DNA of 64,000 nt from an uncultured Acidobacteriota bacterium (GTDB lineage: Bacteria; Acidobacteriota; Vicinamibacteria; Fen-336), in NCBI GenBank assembly GCA_964561785.1, contig CAZLRF010000029.1, positions 1 to 64,000 on the forward strand, given 5' to 3'. The notes beneath the pieces were generated by a model that saw nothing but the letters and a program-made list of their open reading frames with translations, was not told where the DNA came from and did not search any database. This document shows positions 57,670-63,982 of this stretch, in pieces (position 1 is the stretch's first letter; each line of letters begins with the position of its first letter). Both the position numbers and the translations under genes were made by a program.

Positions 57670-60324
57670 ATGGTCCCCCGCCGCGTCGGTTTCGCCGTGC
57701 TCGCCGTGCTCGCGGCCCTCGCCGCCGCGCCGCCCCTCCGGCCCCTCGACCTCGAACGGGGCGCGAGCGGCCTCCAGCTGGCGCTGCGCCGCGTCGGCGT
57801 CGCGGGGCGCGTCCTGTACGTGACCGCCCACCCCGACGACGAGATGAACGGCGTCCTCGTGCGCCTCTCCCGAGGCCTCGGGCTGCGCACGGCGCTGCTG
57901 AGCCTCACGCGGGGCGAGGGCGGGCAGAACGCGATCGGACCGGAGCTGTTCGATGCCCTCGGCGTGCTGCGCACGGGGGAGCTCGACGCGGTGCACCGCT
58001 ACGACGGGGCGGAGCAGTACTTCGGTCGCGCGTACGAGTTCGGCTTCTCGTTCAGCGTCGAGGAGACCTTCGCGCGGTGGGGACACGAGGAGACGCTCGG
58101 GGACGTCGTGCGCGTGCTGCGCGCGTTCCGGCCCGACGTCGTCCTCACCCTCCCCCTCGAGGGCGAGGGGGGCGGGCAGCACCACCAGGCGGCCGCCCGC
58201 CTCGCTCTGGAGGCCTTCCGCGCGGCGGCCGACCCCGCGCGCTTCCCGGAGCAGCTCGCGGCCGGCCTGCGCCCCTGGCAGGCGCGCCGGATCTACCAGG
58301 GCGGGGTCGGGGGCTACGGGACCGTGCCGGGGACCCCTGTCCGGGTGCCGACCGGCGTCTTCGACCCGGCGCTCGGCGAGACGTGGCAGCAGCTCGGCAG
58401 CCGGGCGCGGGCGATGCACCGCTGCCAGGGCACCGGGCAGCTCGTGGCCGACCCGGGGCCGGCGGAGGGCGTCTTCTCGCTCCTCGACTCCGAGCCCGCC
58501 GCGGCCTCCGCCGGGGGGGACCTCCTCACGGGGATCGACGTGTCGCTGCGGGGGATATCTCGGTTCGCGCCAGGGCTCGCCGCCGACCTCGAGGCCCTCC
58601 AGGCCCGGGCCGACGCCGCCCGGGCGGCCTTCCGTGCCGACGACCTCCCCGCCGCCGCCCCGGCCCTCGCGGAGACGCTTCGCGCCGTGCGTGGCCTCGC
58701 GGACGGGCTCGGGGGCCGCGTGGCCGACCCCGCCTCACGGGCCGAGGTGGAGGAGCGCCTGCGGGACGAGGAGGCGGACGTCGAGCGCGCGCTCGCGCGG
58801 GCCCTCGGTCTCGCCCTCGACGCGCGGGCCGACGACGGCCTCGTCACCCCCGGGCAGGAGGTGGGGGTCTCACTCGTGCTCGCGAGCGGGGCGGGCCTGG
58901 CCGTCGACGTCCTGGCCTTCGAGGTCGAGGCCCCGGCCGGCTGGACGGTCGCCCCGCGCCACGCGCAGACGGGCCCGCTCCCGGCCGGCGACGTGCGTCG
59001 CGCGGGCTTCGCGGTGACGGTGGCCGCGGACGCGCGACCCTCCCAGCCCTACTGGCGGCGGGAGCCGGACCGCGACCGGCACCACCTCCTCGTCCCCGCG
59101 GACGAGTCGCGGCCGTGGAGCCCCCCCGTCCTCCTCGCACGGGCCCGCGTGCGCGCGGCGGGCGTCGCGACGACGCTCGCCGCGCCGGTGGCGTGGCGCT
59201 ACGAGGGCCCGTTCGTCGGGGGCGAGCGCCGGCACGAGGTGCAGGTCGTGCCCGCGCTCTCGCTGCGCACGTCCCCCGAGATCGCCCCCGTGCCGCTCGC
59301 GCTCCCGCGGCGCCCCCTCGAGGTGCGGGTGTTCGCGCGCAGCCTCGCGCGGGGCGCGGGAGCGGCGGAGGTGCGGCTCGACGCTCCTGCGGGCTGGACG
59401 GTCGACCCGCCGTCCGCGCACCTCGTCTTCGCCCACGAAGGCGAGGAGGCCGCGGCCCGCTTCCGGGTGACGCCGCCCGCCTCCCTCGAGCCGGGGACCC
59501 TCGCCCTGCGGGCGGTGGCCGTGCGGGACGCTCGCGAGCACCGCGACGGCGTCCAGGCCGTCGAGTACGACCACGTGGAGCGCCGCCAGCTGCTGCGTCC
59601 CGCCGAGACGCGCGTCCTCGTCCTCGACCTGCGCACGTCCCCCGAGGCGTCCGTGGGCTACGTCATGGGCCCGGGCGACGCGCTCGCCGACGCGATCCGG
59701 CAGATGGGCGTCCCCGTGACGCTGCTGAGCGCCGAGGACCTCCTCTTCGGAGACCTCGGGCGGTTCACCACGATCGTGACCGGCATCCGGGCGTACGAGA
59801 CGCGGGCCGACCTGCGCGCGTCGCACGGCCGGCTCCTGCGATGGGTCGAGGCGGGCGGGCACCTCGTCGTGCAGTACAACCGGGACGCCTTCAACCGCCT
59901 CGCTCCCGGGGCGCCCGCGCCGGCGCCGGGCGCGCCGAGCCCCTACGTCCCGCTGCCGGCCGTGGTCACTCCCGCGCGGGTCAGCGACGAGACCGCGCCC
60001 GTCCGGGCGTTGGTCGGCGGCCACCGGCTCCTGTCGCAGCCCAACCGCATCGGCCCCGCCGACTGGGAGGGCTGGGTGCAGGAGCGCGGCCTCCAGCTCC
60101 TCGCCCCGCGGGATCCCGGCTACGTCGACCTGCTGGCCGCGACCGACCCGTTCCCGTTCAACCCCGGCGAGAAGAAGGGATTCCTCGTCGAGGCGAAGGT
60201 GGGCCAGGGCACGTGGACCTACGTGGGCCTCGCCCTCTTCCGGCAGGTCCCCGCCGGCGTCCCCGGCGGCTGGCGGCTCCTCGCCAACCTCGTCAGCCGC
60301 CCGAGGGGTCAGATCTTGAATTGA
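57670..60324 (+). CDS. Secreted PIG-L/LmbE family deacetylase with C-terminal beta-sandwich and GATase-like regions
   Basis: TAHPDDE, TRGEGGQN, GQHH, WVQERG. The stop codon lies inside the left repeat (protein ends GQILN*). Confidence 0.88.
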   Translation: MVPRRVGFAVLAVLAALAAAPPLRPLDLERGASGLQLALRRVGVAGRVLYVTAHPDDEMNGVLVRLSRGLGLRTALLSLTRGEGGQNAIGPELFDALGVLRTGELDAVHRYDGAEQYFGRAYEFGFSFSVEETFARWGHEETLGDVVRVLRAFRPDVVLTLPLEGEGGGQHHQAAARLALEAFRAAADPARFPEQLAAGLRPWQARRIYQGGVGGYGTVPGTPVRVPTGVFDPALGETWQQLGSRARAMHRCQGTGQLVADPGPAEGVFSLLDSEPAAASAGGDLLTGIDVSLRGISRFAPGLAADLEALQARADAARAAFRADDLPAAAPALAETLRAVRGLADGLGGRVADPASRAEVEERLRDEEADVERALARALGLALDARADDGLVTPGQEVGVSLVLASGAGLAVDVLAFEVEAPAGWTVAPRHAQTGPLPAGDVRRAGFAVTVAADARPSQPYWRREPDRDRHHLLVPADESRPWSPPVLLARARVRAAGVATTLAAPVAWRYEGPFVGGERRHEVQVVPALSLRTSPEIAPVPLALPRRPLEVRVFARSLARGAGAAEVRLDAPAGWTVDPPSAHLVFAHEGEEAAARFRVTPPASLEPGTLALRAVAVRDAREHRDGVQAVEYDHVERRQLLRPAETRVLVLDLRTSPEASVGYVMGPGDALADAIRQMGVPVTLLSAEDLLFGDLGRFTTIVTGIRAYETRADLRASHGRLLRWVEAGGHLVVQYNRDAFNRLAPGAPAPAPGAPSPYVPLPAVVTPARVSDETAPVRALVGGHRLLSQPNRIGPADWEGWVQERGLQLLAPRDPGYVDLLAATDPFPFNPGEKKGFLVEAKVGQGTWTYVGLALFRQVPAGVPGGWRLLANLVSRPRGQILN

Positions 60325-60343
60325 CGCATTCCGTCGCCCGGAT
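60305..60343. repeat. Left (truncated) copy of a palindromic REP/MITE-like element
   Basis: GGGGTCAGATCTTGAATTGACGCATTCCGTCGCCCGGAT is 38/39 identical to the reverse complement of 62278-62316. Confidence 0.9.
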
Positions 60344-60348
60344 TGCTC

Positions 60349-61245
60349 TCAGGGCGTGTCGCGCCCGGCGGACCTCGAGTGGAGCCACACGTGGGGCAGG
60401 GTGAGGGCGAGCAGCGCCTGGAAGACGATCCGGACCCCGCTTTCGAGGGGAGGCCCCGGGAGGGCCAGCCAGGTCGCGGCCCCAGCGACGACCACGCCGA
60501 GCGAGAGCGGCAGGCCGAGGACGAAGCGCCTGCCGGCCTCGTGCCAGGACCGGGCCGGGCCCGGCAACCGCAGATCGAGGGTGTGGCGGACCGCGTGGAC
60601 CGCGCAGAAGTACACGAGGAAGGACGCGAGCGGGGAGAGGACGAGGAACAGGGTGAGGAGGAGCGCGATCTCGGCGGCGGAGCGCAGGGGGGCGACGCGG
60701 CGCTCGCGAAGCGCCCGGCCGGCTTCGACGAGGGCGAGGAGCACCGCCGCCGGAACGAGGGCGAGCCCGGCACGGCCGAGCGCCTGTCCCAGCGGCGACG
60801 GGGTGCCGGGGGGCAGTCCCTCGACCGCGCCGAGCAGGAGCGCCGCCGCCTGGGGATGGGCGAGGGCGGGAGCGACGAGCGGCAGGGAGCCCCGCACCAC
60901 GATCTCTGCCCGTCGCCCCCCGCGCGACGGACCGCCGCTCCCGTCCTCGAGGCCGAAGTGCAGGGCGGAGAGGGCGAGCAGGGCGCAGAGGGTGAGCCGG
61001 GGCGCCAAGGCGAAGGCCAGCAGGGCGCCGGCGGCGAGGCCGGCATACGCCAGGGTCGAGGCCAGGCGTCCGTCGCGCGGGCCACGGCGAAGTACCTCGA
61101 GGTCGAGGGCGCCGTGGGGAAGACCGAGAAGCACGATCAGGCTCAGGATGAGGAAGGCTTGCTCCCCCGCGCCCGGCAGCAGCAAGCTCCCCGTGATCGC
61201 GACGGGAAGAACGAAGAGGAGCGCTTGCTGGTGCTGCGTCTGCAC
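60349..61245 (-). CDS. blh: Brp/Blh family beta-carotene 15,15'-dioxygenase
   Basis: GLPHGALD, LHFG, HAVRH, LTLPH iron-ligand His motifs; multi-TM; directly downstream of the opsin. The start is uncertain (GTG 61245 chosen; ATG 61323 possible). Confidence 0.88.
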   Translation of the reverse strand: MQTQHQQALLFVLPVAITGSLLLPGAGEQAFLILSLIVLLGLPHGALDLEVLRRGPRDGRLASTLAYAGLAAGALLAFALAPRLTLCALLALSALHFGLEDGSGGPSRGGRRAEIVVRGSLPLVAPALAHPQAAALLLGAVEGLPPGTPSPLGQALGRAGLALVPAAVLLALVEAGRALRERRVAPLRSAAEIALLLTLFLVLSPLASFLVYFCAVHAVRHTLDLRLPGPARSWHEAGRRFVLGLPLSLGVVVAGAATWLALPGPPLESGVRIVFQALLALTLPHVWLHSRSAGRDTP

Positions 61246-61332
61246 ATCCACCTGTCCTCGGCACGTCCCAAGCGCGCTCCTCGAGTGACTGATGCGGGGT
61301 ATGGGCGCCACACAAGAACCCATGGACCGAGA

Positions 61333-61363
61333 GGGGCGGGCGGATCGAGGACCCGCCCGCCCC
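61333..61363 (-). other. Stem-loop between the opsin and blh genes
   Basis: Perfect 11-bp inverted repeat GGGGCGGGCGG-N9-CCGCCCGCCCC, 10 nt after the opsin stop; no U-tract. Confidence 0.7.
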
Positions 61364-61373
61364 AGAGGGACCG

Positions 61374-62150
61374 TCAGACGGTGGCGAGCGGGGCCGGCGC
61401 GGGGGCGAAGTGCTCCGCGGCCGACTTCGCGCGCGCGATCCCGAAGACGTACAGGCCGAGACCCACCTTGGCGACGAGGTCGGCGATCGTGTAGCCGACC
61501 TGGAGCGCCACCTCGGCGGTCGCCCCTCCCAGACCCAGGTCGGGCGCGAGGAACGCGATCGGGTAGAAGCTCCAGGAGAGCAGGATCAAGAGCCGGGCCC
61601 GGGCCACGAGGTCCTTGACCGCGTCGGGCTGCCGGTCGATCGAGCGGGAGAGCTGCGACCAGAGCACGTACATGATGTAGAGGAACGGGAGCATGCTGAG
61701 CGACCACCAGAGCAGGCGGGTCGGTGTGGCGTCCGCCACCTCCCCGGGGTAGCCGAGCCCGATCATGAGCGTGGCCGCCACGACCAGCTTCGTGAGGAGG
61801 GGGCGGGCCACCGCGGCCGCGAGGGCGAGGACGGCGACCAGCTCGACGAGAAGCAGCGGAACCGTGAGGAGCCAGTCGGCGTAGCGGTACGCGTCATTGA
61901 AGGGGAGGCCGGTGGGGGCGTACGCGCCTCCCTGGAGGGCGTAGGCGGCCTTCCAGCTCTCGTAGATGCGGAAGTAGTGGTAGCAGGCGATCGCCGTCAC
62001 CAGTCCGGAGACGGTGAGAGCGGTCCGGTACTGGGGGGCGACCTGGGCTCGCGACAGGAAGAAGAACAGGGTCGCCGCTCCCATCCCGGCAACGGTCAGG
62101 GAGAGCAGGTTCGCCACCAGCCCAAACTGTCCGGGGTTCAGGGTTTCCAT
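61374..62150 (-). CDS. Microbial rhodopsin, xanthorhodopsin/Gloeobacter-rhodopsin family, DTE proton-pump motif (258 aa)
   Basis: YHY (His), YRYADWLLTVPLLLVE, GYPGE, SWSFYPI, GYTIADLVAK (retinal Lys); ATG 62150 with AAGGAG SD. Confidence 0.95.
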   Translation of the reverse strand: METLNPGQFGLVANLLSLTVAGMGAATLFFFLSRAQVAPQYRTALTVSGLVTAIACYHYFRIYESWKAAYALQGGAYAPTGLPFNDAYRYADWLLTVPLLLVELVAVLALAAAVARPLLTKLVVAATLMIGLGYPGEVADATPTRLLWWSLSMLPFLYIMYVLWSQLSRSIDRQPDAVKDLVARARLLILLSWSFYPIAFLAPDLGLGGATAEVALQVGYTIADLVAKVGLGLYVFGIARAKSAAEHFAPAPAPLATV

Positions 62151-62254
62151 CGAGTGAGACTCCTTGTGGGGCAAGCGCATCGAGCGCCGTCACTCTTGAA
62201 GACGCCCCGGCCGAGTCTATGTTTTGTAAAACTTTTGAATAGCCCAGGAGACGA

Positions 62255-62316
62255 GGGGTCAGATCTTGAAATAGCGCATCCGGGCGGCGGAATGCGTCAA
62301 TTCAAGATCTGACCCC
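62255..62316. repeat. Complete 62-bp palindromic element with 16-bp terminal inverted repeats (GGGGTCAGATCTTGAA ... TTCAAGATCTGACCCC)
   Basis: Directly visible; it contains the amidohydrolase stop codon (62297-62299). Confidence 0.9.
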
Positions 62317-63982
62317 CTTCGTAGAGCACGCGGCCGTCGAGGACCGTCATCTCCACGCGGGTGTGCAGCAGCCGCTCGTCGGGCACCGACAGGATGTCCT
62401 GGGAGAGGACGACGAGGTCGGCGAGCTTCCCGACCTCGATCGAGCCCTTCTCGCGCTCGGCGAAGCTGCCGTAGGCGGCGTCGAGCGTCATCGTCCGCAG
62501 GGCCTCGCTCCGGGTGAGCCTCTGGTCGGGGTCGAAGCCGCCCGGCGGCCTGCCGCTCGCGTCCTGCCGCGTCACGGTCGCGTGGAAGTTCTGGATCGGC
62601 GAGAGGTCTTCCACCGGCGCGTCGGTGCCGTTGAGGACCCGCGCGCCCGCGTCGAGGAGCTTGCGCCACGCATAGGCGCCCTCCCTCACGCGGTCCTCGC
62701 CCAGGCGGAGGGGGGCCCAGGGGCGGTCCGAGGGGCAGTGGATCCCCTGCACGGCGGCGAGGACGCCGAGCCGCCCGAAGCGCGGGAGGTCGGCCGCGTC
62801 GAGGATCTGTGCGTGCTCGATCCGCAGCCGCGGGTCCTTCGCCTCGGGGCGCTCGGCCATCGCCTTCTCGTAGGCGTCGAGGACGATCCGGTTCGCCCGG
62901 TCGCCGATCGCGTGGGTCCCCACCTGGAAGCCGCGGGCGAGGGCGAAGCGCACGGCCTCGAGGATGGCGTCCGGGGGGGTGACGAGGAGGCCGGAGTGGC
63001 CCGGGTCGTCCGCGTACGGCTCGAGCAGCGCCGCCCCGCGCGAGCCGAGAGCGCCGTCCGCGTAGAGCTTGACCGCGCGCACGGCCAGGAAGCCGTTTCC
63101 CGGATCGGGCCTTTCGAGCTCACGCATCGTCGGCAGGCCCGCCGCCATCACGTACAGCCGCGTCCGCAGCCTCCCCGCCGCGGCCGCCGCGCGGTACAGC
63201 GCGATCACGTCCGCGCCCGCGCCCGCGTCGGTGAGGCTGGTGACCCCCTTCGAGAGGCACTCGTCCATCGCCAGCTCGAGCGCCCGCCGGAGCTCCTCCG
63301 CGGACCGCTCGGGGGCCGCCACCAGGCGCTCCGCGTTGTCCACGAAGACGCCGGAGGCCTCGCCGGCGGCGTCGCGAAGGATCTCGCCGCCCTCGGGCGG
63401 CGCCGTCGTCCGCGTGATCCCCCGCAGCGCCATCGCGCGGGCGTTGGCGAGCACGGCGTGCCCGTCCGCCCGCTCGAGCACGACGGGGTTGTCCGGGGAG
63501 ACGGCGGTGAGGGCGTGGTGGGTGGGAAAGCCGCGCACCGCGCCCGGCGCCGGCGCGTCCCACTTGCCCTCGTGCCAGCCGCGGCCGCGCACCCACTCCC
63601 CGGGCCGCCGGGTGCGGACCGCCGCCGCCACGCGCTCGACCACCTCCGGCCAGCTCCTCGTCCCCGTGAGGTCCACGTCGAGCCGGGCGAACCCGATGCC
63701 CAGCATGTGGGCGTGCGAGTCGTCGAAGCCGGGGACGACGGTCCGGCCCGCGAGGTCGACGACGCGGGTTTTCGGCCCGACGAAAGCCCTCGCCTCCGAG
63801 GCGGAGCCCACCGCCACGATGCGGTTGCTGCGCACCGCCACCGCCTCCGCCCGCGGCCGCTTCACGTCGACGGTGTGGACGACGCCGTTCGTCAGGACGA
63901 GGTCGGCCGGGTCGGCCGCCCGCGCGCGGGGCGCGAGGGCGAGCAGGACCGCCGCGGCGAGGGTGGGGGAGATGCGGGTCAT
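62297..63982 (-). CDS. Secreted amidohydrolase family 3 (YtcJ-like)
   Basis: DSHAH, KLYADGALGSRGA, HAIGD, RIEHAQ, NGTDAP, GSIEVGKLADLVVL. Ends GQILN* within the right repeat. Confidence 0.92.
   Translation of the reverse strand: MTRISPTLAAAVLLALAPRARAADPADLVLTNGVVHTVDVKRPRAEAVAVRSNRIVAVGSASEARAFVGPKTRVVDLAGRTVVPGFDDSHAHMLGIGFARLDVDLTGTRSWPEVVERVAAAVRTRRPGEWVRGRGWHEGKWDAPAPGAVRGFPTHHALTAVSPDNPVVLERADGHAVLANARAMALRGITRTTAPPEGGEILRDAAGEASGVFVDNAERLVAAPERSAEELRRALELAMDECLSKGVTSLTDAGAGADVIALYRAAAAAGRLRTRLYVMAAGLPTMRELERPDPGNGFLAVRAVKLYADGALGSRGAALLEPYADDPGHSGLLVTPPDAILEAVRFALARGFQVGTHAIGDRANRIVLDAYEKAMAERPEAKDPRLRIEHAQILDAADLPRFGRLGVLAAVQGIHCPSDRPWAPLRLGEDRVREGAYAWRKLLDAGARVLNGTDAPVEDLSPIQNFHATVTRQDASGRPPGGFDPDQRLTRSEALRTMTLDAAYGSFAEREKGSIEVGKLADLVVLSQDILSVPDERLLHTRVEMTVLDGRVLYEGGQILN

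What the first reader, a model, noticed from the sequence alone, without database searches (positions are those of the whole stretch)
61374..62150. Xanthorhodopsin-family proton pump lacking the antenna fenestration, in a probable Acidobacteriota genome
Helix C reads D-T-E at the BR 85/89/96 positions with Leu at the position-93 tuning site (green-type). The helix-B His and the helix-G D...K are present, predicting an outward H+ pump. In helix E, TRLLWWSLSMLPF aligns with Gloeobacter rhodopsin TRIIWGTVSTIPF, placing Trp where antenna-binding pumps have Gly, so no carotenoid antenna is predicted. Rhodopsin phototrophy is not a standard trait of this inferred lineage.
Basis: partly seen in the sequence, partly recalled or inferred. 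Interest (0 to 1): 0.62.

Follow-up and report, generated by a model that had tools for sequence, protein, structure and literature searches.

The report
Antenna-less xanthorhodopsin acquired by soil acidobacterium
This is a real, intact light-driven proton-pump gene of the xanthorhodopsin family, inserted together with its retinal-making partner gene into the chromosome of an uncultured Vicinamibacteria (Acidobacteriota) bacterium. The pump type, including its blocked carotenoid-antenna site, is already well known, so it is an ordinary new member in an unusual host.

Summary
Observation confirmed. The minus-strand ORF 61374-62150 is a xanthorhodopsin-family rhodopsin. It matches Pfam PF01036 and is 58-59% identical to psXR and Gloeobacter rhodopsin. 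The model has pLDDT 92 and TM 0.93-0.98 to solved XR-clade structures. It has helix-B His, D-T-E with Leu93, and helix-G D...K. Trp aligns exactly with GR Gly178 / XR Gly156.

A Brp/Blh beta-carotene dioxygenase gene lies directly downstream. A crtY-crtI-crtB operon sits on another contig, so the full retinal route is encoded.

The host is Vicinamibacteria (Acidobacteriota). Rhodopsins are rare there: 1 of 59 genomes in the family (this one), 7 of 401 in the class, about 2% of the phylum. Thirteen congeners have the two flanking genes next to each other with no rhodopsin. The 1.95-kb rhodopsin+blh pair is therefore an insertion, not a binning artefact.

Two points are not new. Trp at the antenna site is the majority state among the 120 nearest homologues (96 W, 22 G, 3 F). 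Published work puts about 45% of environmental xanthorhodopsins in the non-fenestrated class. Acidobacteriota rhodopsins are already annotated and published.

Verdict: new member of a known kind, of modest interest, mainly as a clean case of plug-in phototrophy by horizontal transfer.

The parts
61374..62150 (-). Xanthorhodopsin-family opsin gene, 258 aa (an alternative in-frame ATG at 62180 would give 268 aa)
   Evidence: PF01036 E 1.7e-41. PDB psXR 9wfa E 1e-87 and GR 6nwd E 4e-85. AF2 pLDDT 92, TM 0.93-0.98 to 9wfa/6nwd/3ddl/5azd/8i2z. dN/dS 0.12 against the 90%-identical L093.
62160..62165 (-). Shine-Dalgarno AAGGAG, 9 nt upstream of ATG 62150
   Evidence: Read directly from the sequence.
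61842..61877 (-). Helix C motif codons: D92 (BR D85), T96 (T89), L100 (L93, green tuning), E103 (D96)
   Evidence: RYADWLLTVPLLLVELV in the translation. All four are invariant in 121 homologues.
61704..61706 (-). TGG codon for Trp149, the residue at XR Gly156 / GR Gly178 / Kin4B8 Gly153 (antenna fenestration site)
   Evidence: Ungapped alignment to 6nwd. Among homologues the column reads 96 W / 22 G / 3 F.
61467..61481 (-). Helix G D224...K228 (BR D212 and Schiff-base K216)
   Evidence: IADLVAK in the translation. Invariant in homologues.
61977..61979 (-). Helix B His58 (XR His62 / GR His87 / PR His75 equivalent)
   Evidence: CYHYFRI. His in 120 of 121 aligned sequences, one with a gap.
61333..61363 (-). 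14-bp G+C stem-loop between the opsin stop and blh; no U tract
   Evidence: Inverted repeat I17. RNA fold -40 kcal/mol, z -3.5. Not called as an intrinsic terminator.
60349..61321 (-). blh: Brp/Blh beta-carotene 15,15'-dioxygenase (retinal synthesis); start codon uncertain
   Evidence: PF15461 E 9e-41 and TIGR03753 160 bits against a cut-off of 95. The motifs PHGALD, LHFGLED and HAVRH supply four His. The same gene order occurs in L093.
60305..60343 (+). Half copy of a genus-restricted REP-like palindromic element; contains the stop codon of the PIG-L-domain gene (...GQILN*)
62255..62316 (.). Full copy of the same palindromic element; contains the stop codon of the amidohydrolase gene. Its right half is 97% complementary to 60305-60343.
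57700..60324 (+). Host flank: PIG-L / NEW3-domain protein, syntenic in congeners (start not determined)
   Evidence: Pfam. Orthologues at 63-79% identity lie next to the amidohydrolase in 13 congeners.
62297..63982 (-). Host flank: Amidohydro_3 protein, syntenic in congeners
   Evidence: Pfam E 2e-103. Orthologues at 72-83% identity.

Best explanation
The gene encodes a retinal-only, green-absorbing, outward light-driven proton pump of the xanthorhodopsin (XR) clade. Asp92 accepts the Schiff-base proton and pairs with His58. Glu103 donates the proton back. Lys228 binds retinal. Trp149 fills the helix-E opening that carotenoid-binding XRs keep open with Gly, so no carotenoid antenna is expected. 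The co-oriented downstream blh gene cleaves beta-carotene to retinal. Beta-carotene comes from a crtY-crtI-crtB operon elsewhere in the genome. The opsin+blh pair is a 1.95-kb insertion between two convergent housekeeping-type genes of a Vicinamibacteria chromosome, acquired horizontally after this species split from its sampled congeners. It gives an otherwise chemoheterotrophic soil-type acidobacterium a supplementary light-driven proton-motive force. Shown here: sequence, family, residues, fold, gene context, insertion, rarity in the lineage, purifying selection. Inferred: retinal binding, pumping direction, absorption colour, absence of antenna, expression.
For: Family and fold:
- PF01036.
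- E 1e-87 to 1e-71 to psXR, GR, TR, XR and Kin4B8, against about 1e-29 to proteorhodopsins and chloride pumps.
- Model pLDDT 92, seven helices plus a B-C hairpin. TM 0.93-0.98, rmsd 0.7-1.5 A to the XR-clade structures.

Catalytic residues:
- D, T, L, E, D and K are invariant in 121 sequences; His is present in 120, one with a gap.

Trp at the Gly site:
- Alignment.
- Kin4B8 G153F abolishes carotenoid binding, and bulky Trp/Phe are stated to make antenna use impossible (the same statement).

Retinal supply:
- blh is adjacent.
- crtB, crtI and crtY lie at C42:19916-23369.

Selection:
- dN/dS 0.12 against L093.

Host and integrity:
- Aconitase on the same contig is 88-90% identical to 'Vicinamibacteria bacterium' proteins.
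- Both flanks are syntenic with 13 congeners that lack the pair.
- GC3 of the opsin is 0.93, like host genes.
- The MAG is 100% complete with 0.2% contamination.

Horizontal origin:
- Only 1 of 59 family genomes carries any rhodopsin.
- The other rhodopsins in the class are 31% identical, a different type.
- The same opsin+blh pair, at 76-77% nucleotide identity, sits beside different neighbours (a PF04248 gene; a PIN gene) on two metagenomic contigs.
Against: There is no biochemical or expression evidence. No sigma-70-like promoter was found upstream, although such scans are poor for Acidobacteriota. The habitat of the organism is unknown, so light exposure is unproven. A few rhodopsins bind carotenoids without using the XR-type fenestration in the same way, for example the myxol-bound NM-R3 structure 9jow listed. 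Absence of any antenna is therefore a prediction, not a certainty. The donor lineage is unresolved: grouping with the Acidobacteriota XR clade has only 84% SH-aLRT.
Confidence: 0.85

Rival explanations
1. The protein still uses a carotenoid antenna, bound in another mode or to a secondary site despite Trp149. This would make it an atypical two-chromophore pump.
For: The genome makes carotenoids. Carotenoid-bound rhodopsins outside the classical XR mode exist, for example myxol-bound NM-R3 9jow in the fold-search list and heliorhodopsin proposals. The fenestration residue is evolutionarily labile, with at least 5 changes on an 85-sequence tree.
Against: Blocking the homologous Gly in Kin4B8 (G153F) abolishes binding. 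Two papers state that bulky Trp/Phe at this site preclude antenna binding. From memory, not checked here, GR G178W behaves the same way.
Confidence: 0.07
2. The rhodopsin does not belong to this genome, because of a mis-assembly or mis-binned contig. The acidobacterial host would then be an artefact.
For: The gene lies only 1.9 kb from the end of a 64,019-bp contig. It is the only rhodopsin in 59 family genomes. Repeats flank it.
Against: Genes on both sides, including the last gene of the contig, are orthologous to and collinear with 13 congeners. Aconitase, SecDF and RelA on the same contig are host-like. The opsin's codon-position GC matches host genes. The bracketing palindrome belongs to a family found only in this genus.
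Confidence: 0.03
3. The gene is a recently acquired passenger that is not used: silent, or retinal-starved and without physiological role.
For: No promoter was detected. The trait is absent in all congeners. The habitat is unknown. Only 6 of 17 congeners have crtY.
Against: The ORF is intact with every functional residue. dN/dS is 0.12 against its closest relative. blh is co-inherited. A complete crtYIB operon is present in the same genome. The Shine-Dalgarno sequence is strong.
Confidence: 0.05

Closest known systems
Non-fenestrated (Trp/Phe at XR position 156) DTE xanthorhodopsins of environmental bacteria, as classified by Chazan et al. (bioRxiv 10.1101/2022.08.24.505090; later Nature 2023)
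   Same: XR clade, DTE motif, Leu at the tuning site, helix-B His, bulky Trp at position 156. Such proteins make up about 45% of environmental XRs and 96 of the 120 nearest homologues here. They include XRs of Myxococcota, Planctomycetota, Gemmatimonadota and Melainabacteria.
   Different: Nothing in the protein differs. Only the host (Vicinamibacteria) and the two-gene insertion context do. The nearest genome-derived homologues are only 64-67% identical.
Gloeobacter rhodopsin (GR, PDB 6nwd) and psXR (PDB 9wfa)
   Same: 58-59% identity over the whole length, TM 0.91-0.98. Same proton acceptor, donor, His and Schiff-base Lys. Both are characterised outward H+ pumps.
   Different: GR Gly178 and psXR Gly172 open the fenestration and bind echinenone or lutein. 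Here the residue is Trp149.
Salinibacter ruber xanthorhodopsin (PDB 3ddl), Thermus thermophilus rhodopsin (5azd), Kin4B8 (7ytb/8i2z)
   Same: 52-54% identity, same fold (TM 0.92-0.94) and motif.
   Different: All three carry Gly at the antenna site. XR and Kin4B8 have proven carotenoid energy transfer.
Acidobacteriota rhodopsins already described: Acidiparvus (UBA12189, Holophagaceae) proteorhodopsins (PMC11561045), and the XR clade of Blastocatellia/Acidobacteriota MAGs
   Same: Same phylum. DTE, Leu-type green pumps. The Blastocatellia XR clade is the weakly supported sister group (SH-aLRT 84).
   Different: Acidiparvus has PR-type opsins, conserved in the genus, and no crt genes. The Blastocatellia XRs carry Gly, so they are fenestrated. 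The window protein is XR-type with Trp, a singleton in its family, and comes with blh.
Laterally transferred opsin + blh (+crt) 'plug-in phototrophy' modules of marine proteorhodopsin bacteria (established knowledge, not checked here)
   Same: The opsin is linked to blh and moves as a unit between genomes. The host supplies or co-acquires beta-carotene synthesis.
   Different: Here the module is reduced to two genes, sits in a high-GC soil-type acidobacterium, and is bracketed by copies of a host-specific palindromic repeat.

Membership tests
Microbial (type 1) rhodopsin, Pfam PF01036 | Seven-helix opsin fold and profile match above the curated cut-off | tested here: met
   142.6 bits against a cut-off of 24.6. 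The AF2 model has seven helices and pLDDT 92. Top 50 PDB fold hits are all microbial rhodopsins.
Microbial (type 1) rhodopsin, Pfam PF01036 | Schiff-base Lys in helix G (BR K216) with Asp four residues before it (BR D212) | tested here: met
   D224 and K228 in IADLVAK; invariant in 121 sequences.
Xanthorhodopsin clade of the PR/XR group | Closer in sequence and phylogeny to XR, GR, TR and Kin4B8 than to proteorhodopsins or other clades | tested here: met
   E 1e-87 to 2e-71 for XR-clade chains against 1e-29 or weaker for PR, ClR and NaR. Placed inside the XR tree, 3.4 substitutions per site from the PR-like outgroup.
Xanthorhodopsin clade of the PR/XR group | DTE motif (proton acceptor Asp, Thr, carboxylate donor Glu) plus helix-B His | tested here: met
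   D92, T96, E103, H58.
Antenna-containing (fenestrated) xanthorhodopsins | Gly at XR position 156 (GR 178, Kin4B8 153, psXR 172), which opens the fenestration to the retinal ring | tested here: not met
   Trp149 occupies this column. The protein is therefore not filed in this subgroup.
Antenna-containing (fenestrated) xanthorhodopsins | Carotenoid binding and excitation energy transfer to retinal | not testable with these tools
   Needs purified protein with carotenoids (CD, absorbance, fluorescence excitation).
Light-driven outward proton pump | Retinal binding and light-induced proton extrusion | not testable with these tools
   Inferred from full conservation of functional residues and 58-59% identity to characterised pumps.
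Brp/Blh beta-carotene 15,15'-dioxygenase (neighbour gene) | Profile match above the curated cut-off and four conserved iron-binding His | tested here: met
   TIGR03753 160.4 bits against a cut-off of 95.25; PF15461 140.6 bits. His in PHGALD, LHFGLED and HAVRH. That these His bind iron is from memory.

The most novel reading that the evidence does not exclude
The host-specific REP-like palindrome may be more than a bystander. It could have served as the capture or integration site for the rhodopsin+blh pair. The pair is flanked by 39-nt inverted copies that are 97% complementary even through the element's normally variable centre. This would point to a repeat-mediated route by which soil Acidobacteriota pick up small cargo such as a complete phototrophy add-on, and it would make this the first documented recent gain of rhodopsin phototrophy in Vicinamibacteria.
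Probability: 0.15. Interest if true: 0.55.

Novelty: new member of a known kind. Interest (0 to 1): 0.3.

Why it matters
The protein adds nothing new to rhodopsin biology, because antenna-less Trp-type xanthorhodopsins are common and already described. The modest value is ecological and evolutionary. It is a clean, well-bounded example, with empty sites in 13 congeners, of a dominant soil lineage (Vicinamibacteria) gaining light-driven energy capture. The gain needed only two genes, because the host already encodes beta-carotene synthesis. No paper in the searched library links Vicinamibacteria with rhodopsins. The case could therefore be cited as evidence that rhodopsin photoheterotrophy reaches soil Acidobacteriota sporadically by horizontal transfer.

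Tried and rejected
1. Looking up the exact protein on public contigs returned nothing, because records of the window's own genome are withheld.
2. I tried to name the phylum by asking for the kinship of named Acidobacteriota loci through the genome search handles. Kinship is not reported for such genomes, so that search was wasted. Taxonomy was obtained instead from the aconitase on the same contig.
3. NCBIfam has no model that hits the opsin.
4. The promoter and terminator consensus scan found nothing around the cassette.
6. I checked whether the palindromic repeat came in with the cassette. This was rejected: the 77%-identical cassettes on L093 and L094 have no such arms, and the repeat family is spread over the host genome and three congeners.
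7. I checked whether the rhodopsin was inherited vertically within the class. This was rejected: the other class members carry a 31%-identical PR-like opsin or a 50%-identical XR.
8. The papers found for 'Acidobacteria + xanthorhodopsin' did not attribute XRs to Acidobacteria.

Full report
**1. Observation**

The minus strand carries an intact ORF ending at 61374.
- Two in-frame ATGs exist, at 62180 and 62150.
- The second is preceded by AAGGAG nine bases upstream.
- It is also the start used by the closest relative, a 258-aa protein on a JGI metagenome contig (aligned).

The protein matches Pfam Bac_rhodopsin at 142.6 bits. Against all PDB sequences, the best hits are all in the XR clade:

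| Chain | Protein | E-value |
|---|---|---|
| 9wfa | psXR | 1e-87 |
| 6nwd | Gloeobacter rhodopsin | 4e-85 |
| 5azd | Thermus rhodopsin | 3e-76 |
| 3ddl | Salinibacter xanthorhodopsin | 8e-76 |
| 7ytb | Kin4B8 | 2e-71 |

Proteorhodopsins and chloride or sodium pumps score 1e-29 or weaker.

Residues:
- Helix C reads RYADWLLTVPLLLVELV. This gives D/T/L/E at BR positions 85/89/93/96.
- Helix B has CYHYF.
- Helix G has IADLVAK.
- The alignment to 6nwd is ungapped through helix E. Counting chain residues puts the second Trp of TRLLWWSLSMLPF opposite GR Gly178, which is XR Gly156.
- In an alignment with 120 database homologues, D, T, L, E, D and K are invariant and His is present in all but one gapped row.

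An AlphaFold2 model built on 34 homologues has mean pLDDT 92 and pTM 0.88. It shows seven helices and the B-C beta-hairpin.

**2. Surroundings**

Retinal synthesis genes:
- Immediately downstream, on the same strand, is a Brp/Blh beta-carotene 15,15'-dioxygenase gene at 60349 to about 61321.
- It matches PF15461 at E 9e-41 and TIGR03753 at 160 bits against a cut-off of 95.
- A 14-bp G+C hairpin without a U tract separates it from the opsin.
- The genome, 5.2 Mb in 159 contigs and 100% complete with 0.2% contamination, carries only this one rhodopsin.
- On contig C42 it has a contiguous crtY-crtI-crtB operon.
- The full route lycopene, beta-carotene, retinal, holo-rhodopsin is therefore encoded.
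- Six of 17 congeners have a crtY-type cyclase. Carotenoid synthesis is thus patchy but present in the genus.

**3. Host and contig integrity**

- The contig carries SecDF, RelA/SpoT, aconitase and Lhr.
- The aconitase is 88-90% identical to proteins that NCBI names 'Vicinamibacteria bacterium'. It agrees with earlier, unchecked scan notes on this genome.
- The opsin lies 1.9 kb from the contig end, so I tested for chimerism.
- The two flanking genes are a PIG-L/NEW3-domain protein and an Amidohydro_3 protein. Both have orthologues at 63-83% identity in 13 congeners.
- In every one of those genomes the two are convergent neighbours, and genes further upstream are collinear too.
- The gap between them is 6-70 bp in five genomes and 380-600 bp in seven. 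One interval (about 1.5 kb by HSP ends) was not resolved.
- None contains an opsin or blh.
- The opsin's codon-position GC (0.67/0.47/0.93) is like that of host genes.
- The rhodopsin+blh pair is therefore a genuine 1.95-kb insertion in a Vicinamibacteria chromosome.

**4. How unusual it is in this lineage**

A whole-genome profile search with PF01036 gave these counts:

| Level | Genomes with a rhodopsin |
|---|---|
| Family (25 genera) | 1 of 59, this genome only |
| Class | 7 of 401 (5 of 164 genera) |
| Phylum | 7-8 of 401 |

- Six of the seven other rhodopsin copies in the class (five genomes of family f11) share only about 31% identity with the window protein. They have H-DTE-L with Phe at the antenna site, so they are a different, PR-like type. 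The seventh is a 50%-identical XR with Gly.
- 'Not a standard trait' is therefore correct.
- The trait is not unknown in the phylum, however. NCBI already labels MAG proteins 'xanthorhodopsin [Acidobacteriota bacterium]'.
- A freshwater study recovered a few acidobacterial opsins.
- The genus Acidiparvus (Holophagaceae) has conserved proteorhodopsins.
- No paper in the searched library mentions Vicinamibacteria together with rhodopsin.

**5. Origin**

- In a maximum-likelihood tree of 91 sequences, the window protein pairs with the JGI contig L093 (SH-aLRT 99).
- The pair joins an Acidobacteriota/Blastocatellia XR clade and one other same-phylum genome only weakly (SH-aLRT 84). Myxococcota XRs are next nearest. 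The donor is unresolved.
- L093 and an ENA contig, L094, both about 71% GC, carry the same opsin-blh pair at 76-77% nucleotide identity. On L093 the match runs from 54 nt upstream of the opsin start to the end of blh. Their upstream neighbours differ: a PF04248 gene and a PIN gene. The two genes therefore travel as a unit.
- dN/dS between the window opsin and L093 is 0.12, with dS 0.49. This indicates purifying selection.

**6. The antenna site**

- Among the 120 nearest homologues the column reads 96 Trp, 22 Gly and 3 Phe.
- Among the 91 tree sequences it reads 52 Gly, 31 Trp and 8 Phe. Over the 85 XR-clade rows (excluding the six PR-like outgroup rows) there are at least five state changes on the tree.
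- Chazan et al. state that environmental XRs and PRs vary here. They say Trp or Phe make antenna use impossible, that 55% of environmental XRs have Gly, and that Kin4B8 G153F abolishes carotenoid binding. The psXR paper repeats this.
- The prediction of no antenna is therefore well founded. The feature is a known, common state, not a novelty.

**7. Mechanism**

Most likely (confidence 0.85) this is an outward proton pump.
- All-trans retinal is bound at Lys228.
- The Asp92-His58 pair is the counterion and proton acceptor.
- Glu103 is the cytoplasmic donor.
- Absorption is green, by analogy with the Leu-type tuning site and GR.
- There is no carotenoid antenna.
- Retinal is made in the cell by Blh from CrtYIB-derived beta-carotene.
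- The pump supplements the proton-motive force of a heterotroph in light.

The sequence-level steps are shown. Pigment formation, pumping, colour and expression are inferred.

Rival explanations:
- An unconventional antenna mode: 0.07.
- An unused passenger gene: 0.05.
- An assembly artefact: 0.03.

**8. Side observation**

- The cassette is bracketed by a half copy (60305-60343) and a full copy (62255-62316) of a palindromic mini-element, GGTCAGATCTTGAA-N20-45-TTCAAGATCTGACC.
- The half copy and the right half of the full copy form 39-nt inverted repeats that are 97% complementary, including the normally variable centre.
- Both flanking genes end ...GQILN* inside the element. Their orthologues in congeners end differently.
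- The element has 19-21 full copies in this genome and 9, 2 and 1 in three congeners. It has none in the 42 genomes of the family's other genera. It is absent from L093 and L094.
- It is therefore a host repeat, not cargo. Whether it mediated the integration is open.

**9. Verdict**

The finding is a new member of a known kind. Interest is about 0.3, mainly as a tidy case of two-gene horizontal gain of rhodopsin phototrophy in a soil acidobacterial class where it is rare.

Noticed in passing
window 60305-60343 and 62255-62316; genome-wide (e.g. C1:56694-56750, C4:89301-89358, C38:11206-11263): A REP-like mini-palindrome family, GGTCAGATCTTGAA-N20-45-TTCAAGATCTGACC. It has 19-21 full copies in this genome, 9/2/1 in three congeners, and none in the other 24 genera of the family. 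One full and one half copy bracket the rhodopsin-blh cassette as 39-nt inverted repeats, 97% complementary. Both neighbouring genes take their last codons (GQILN*) and stop from it.
   Followed up: partly
loci L112, L114, L115, L117, L118, L120, L121 (junction between the PIG-L and amidohydrolase orthologues): The same convergent-gene junction is a variable spot in congeners. Five have 6-70 bp between the genes. Seven have an unexamined 380-600 bp insert, possibly a small gene.
   Followed up: no
loci L082-L086, L088 (genomes G114, G090, G283, G195, G234; same class, family f11): Another Vicinamibacteria-class family carries a different, PR-like rhodopsin. It is about 31% identical to the window protein, with H-DTE-L and Phe at the antenna site. 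G114 has two copies.
   Followed up: partly
own genome C42:19916-23369 (minus strand): A contiguous crtY-crtI-crtB carotenoid operon. A crtY-type cyclase is found in only 6 of 17 congeners, so carotenoid synthesis is itself patchy in the genus. C48:29839-31433 holds two tandem SQS_PSY genes, probably squalene/hopanoid-type.
   Followed up: partly
window 61333-61363 (minus strand RNA): A strong 14-bp G+C hairpin (-40 kcal/mol, z -3.5) lies between the opsin stop and blh, without a U tract. It may be a partial terminator or stabiliser that sets the opsin:blh expression ratio.
   Followed up: partly
L093 (JGI 3300037524) and L094 (ENA ERZ27245496): Two short high-GC metagenome contigs carry the same opsin-blh pair. 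The opsin is 90% and 87% identical in protein, and the cassette is 76-77% identical in nucleotides. Their upstream neighbours differ (a PF04248 gene; a PIN-domain gene), which shows the pair sits in several genomic contexts.
   Followed up: partly
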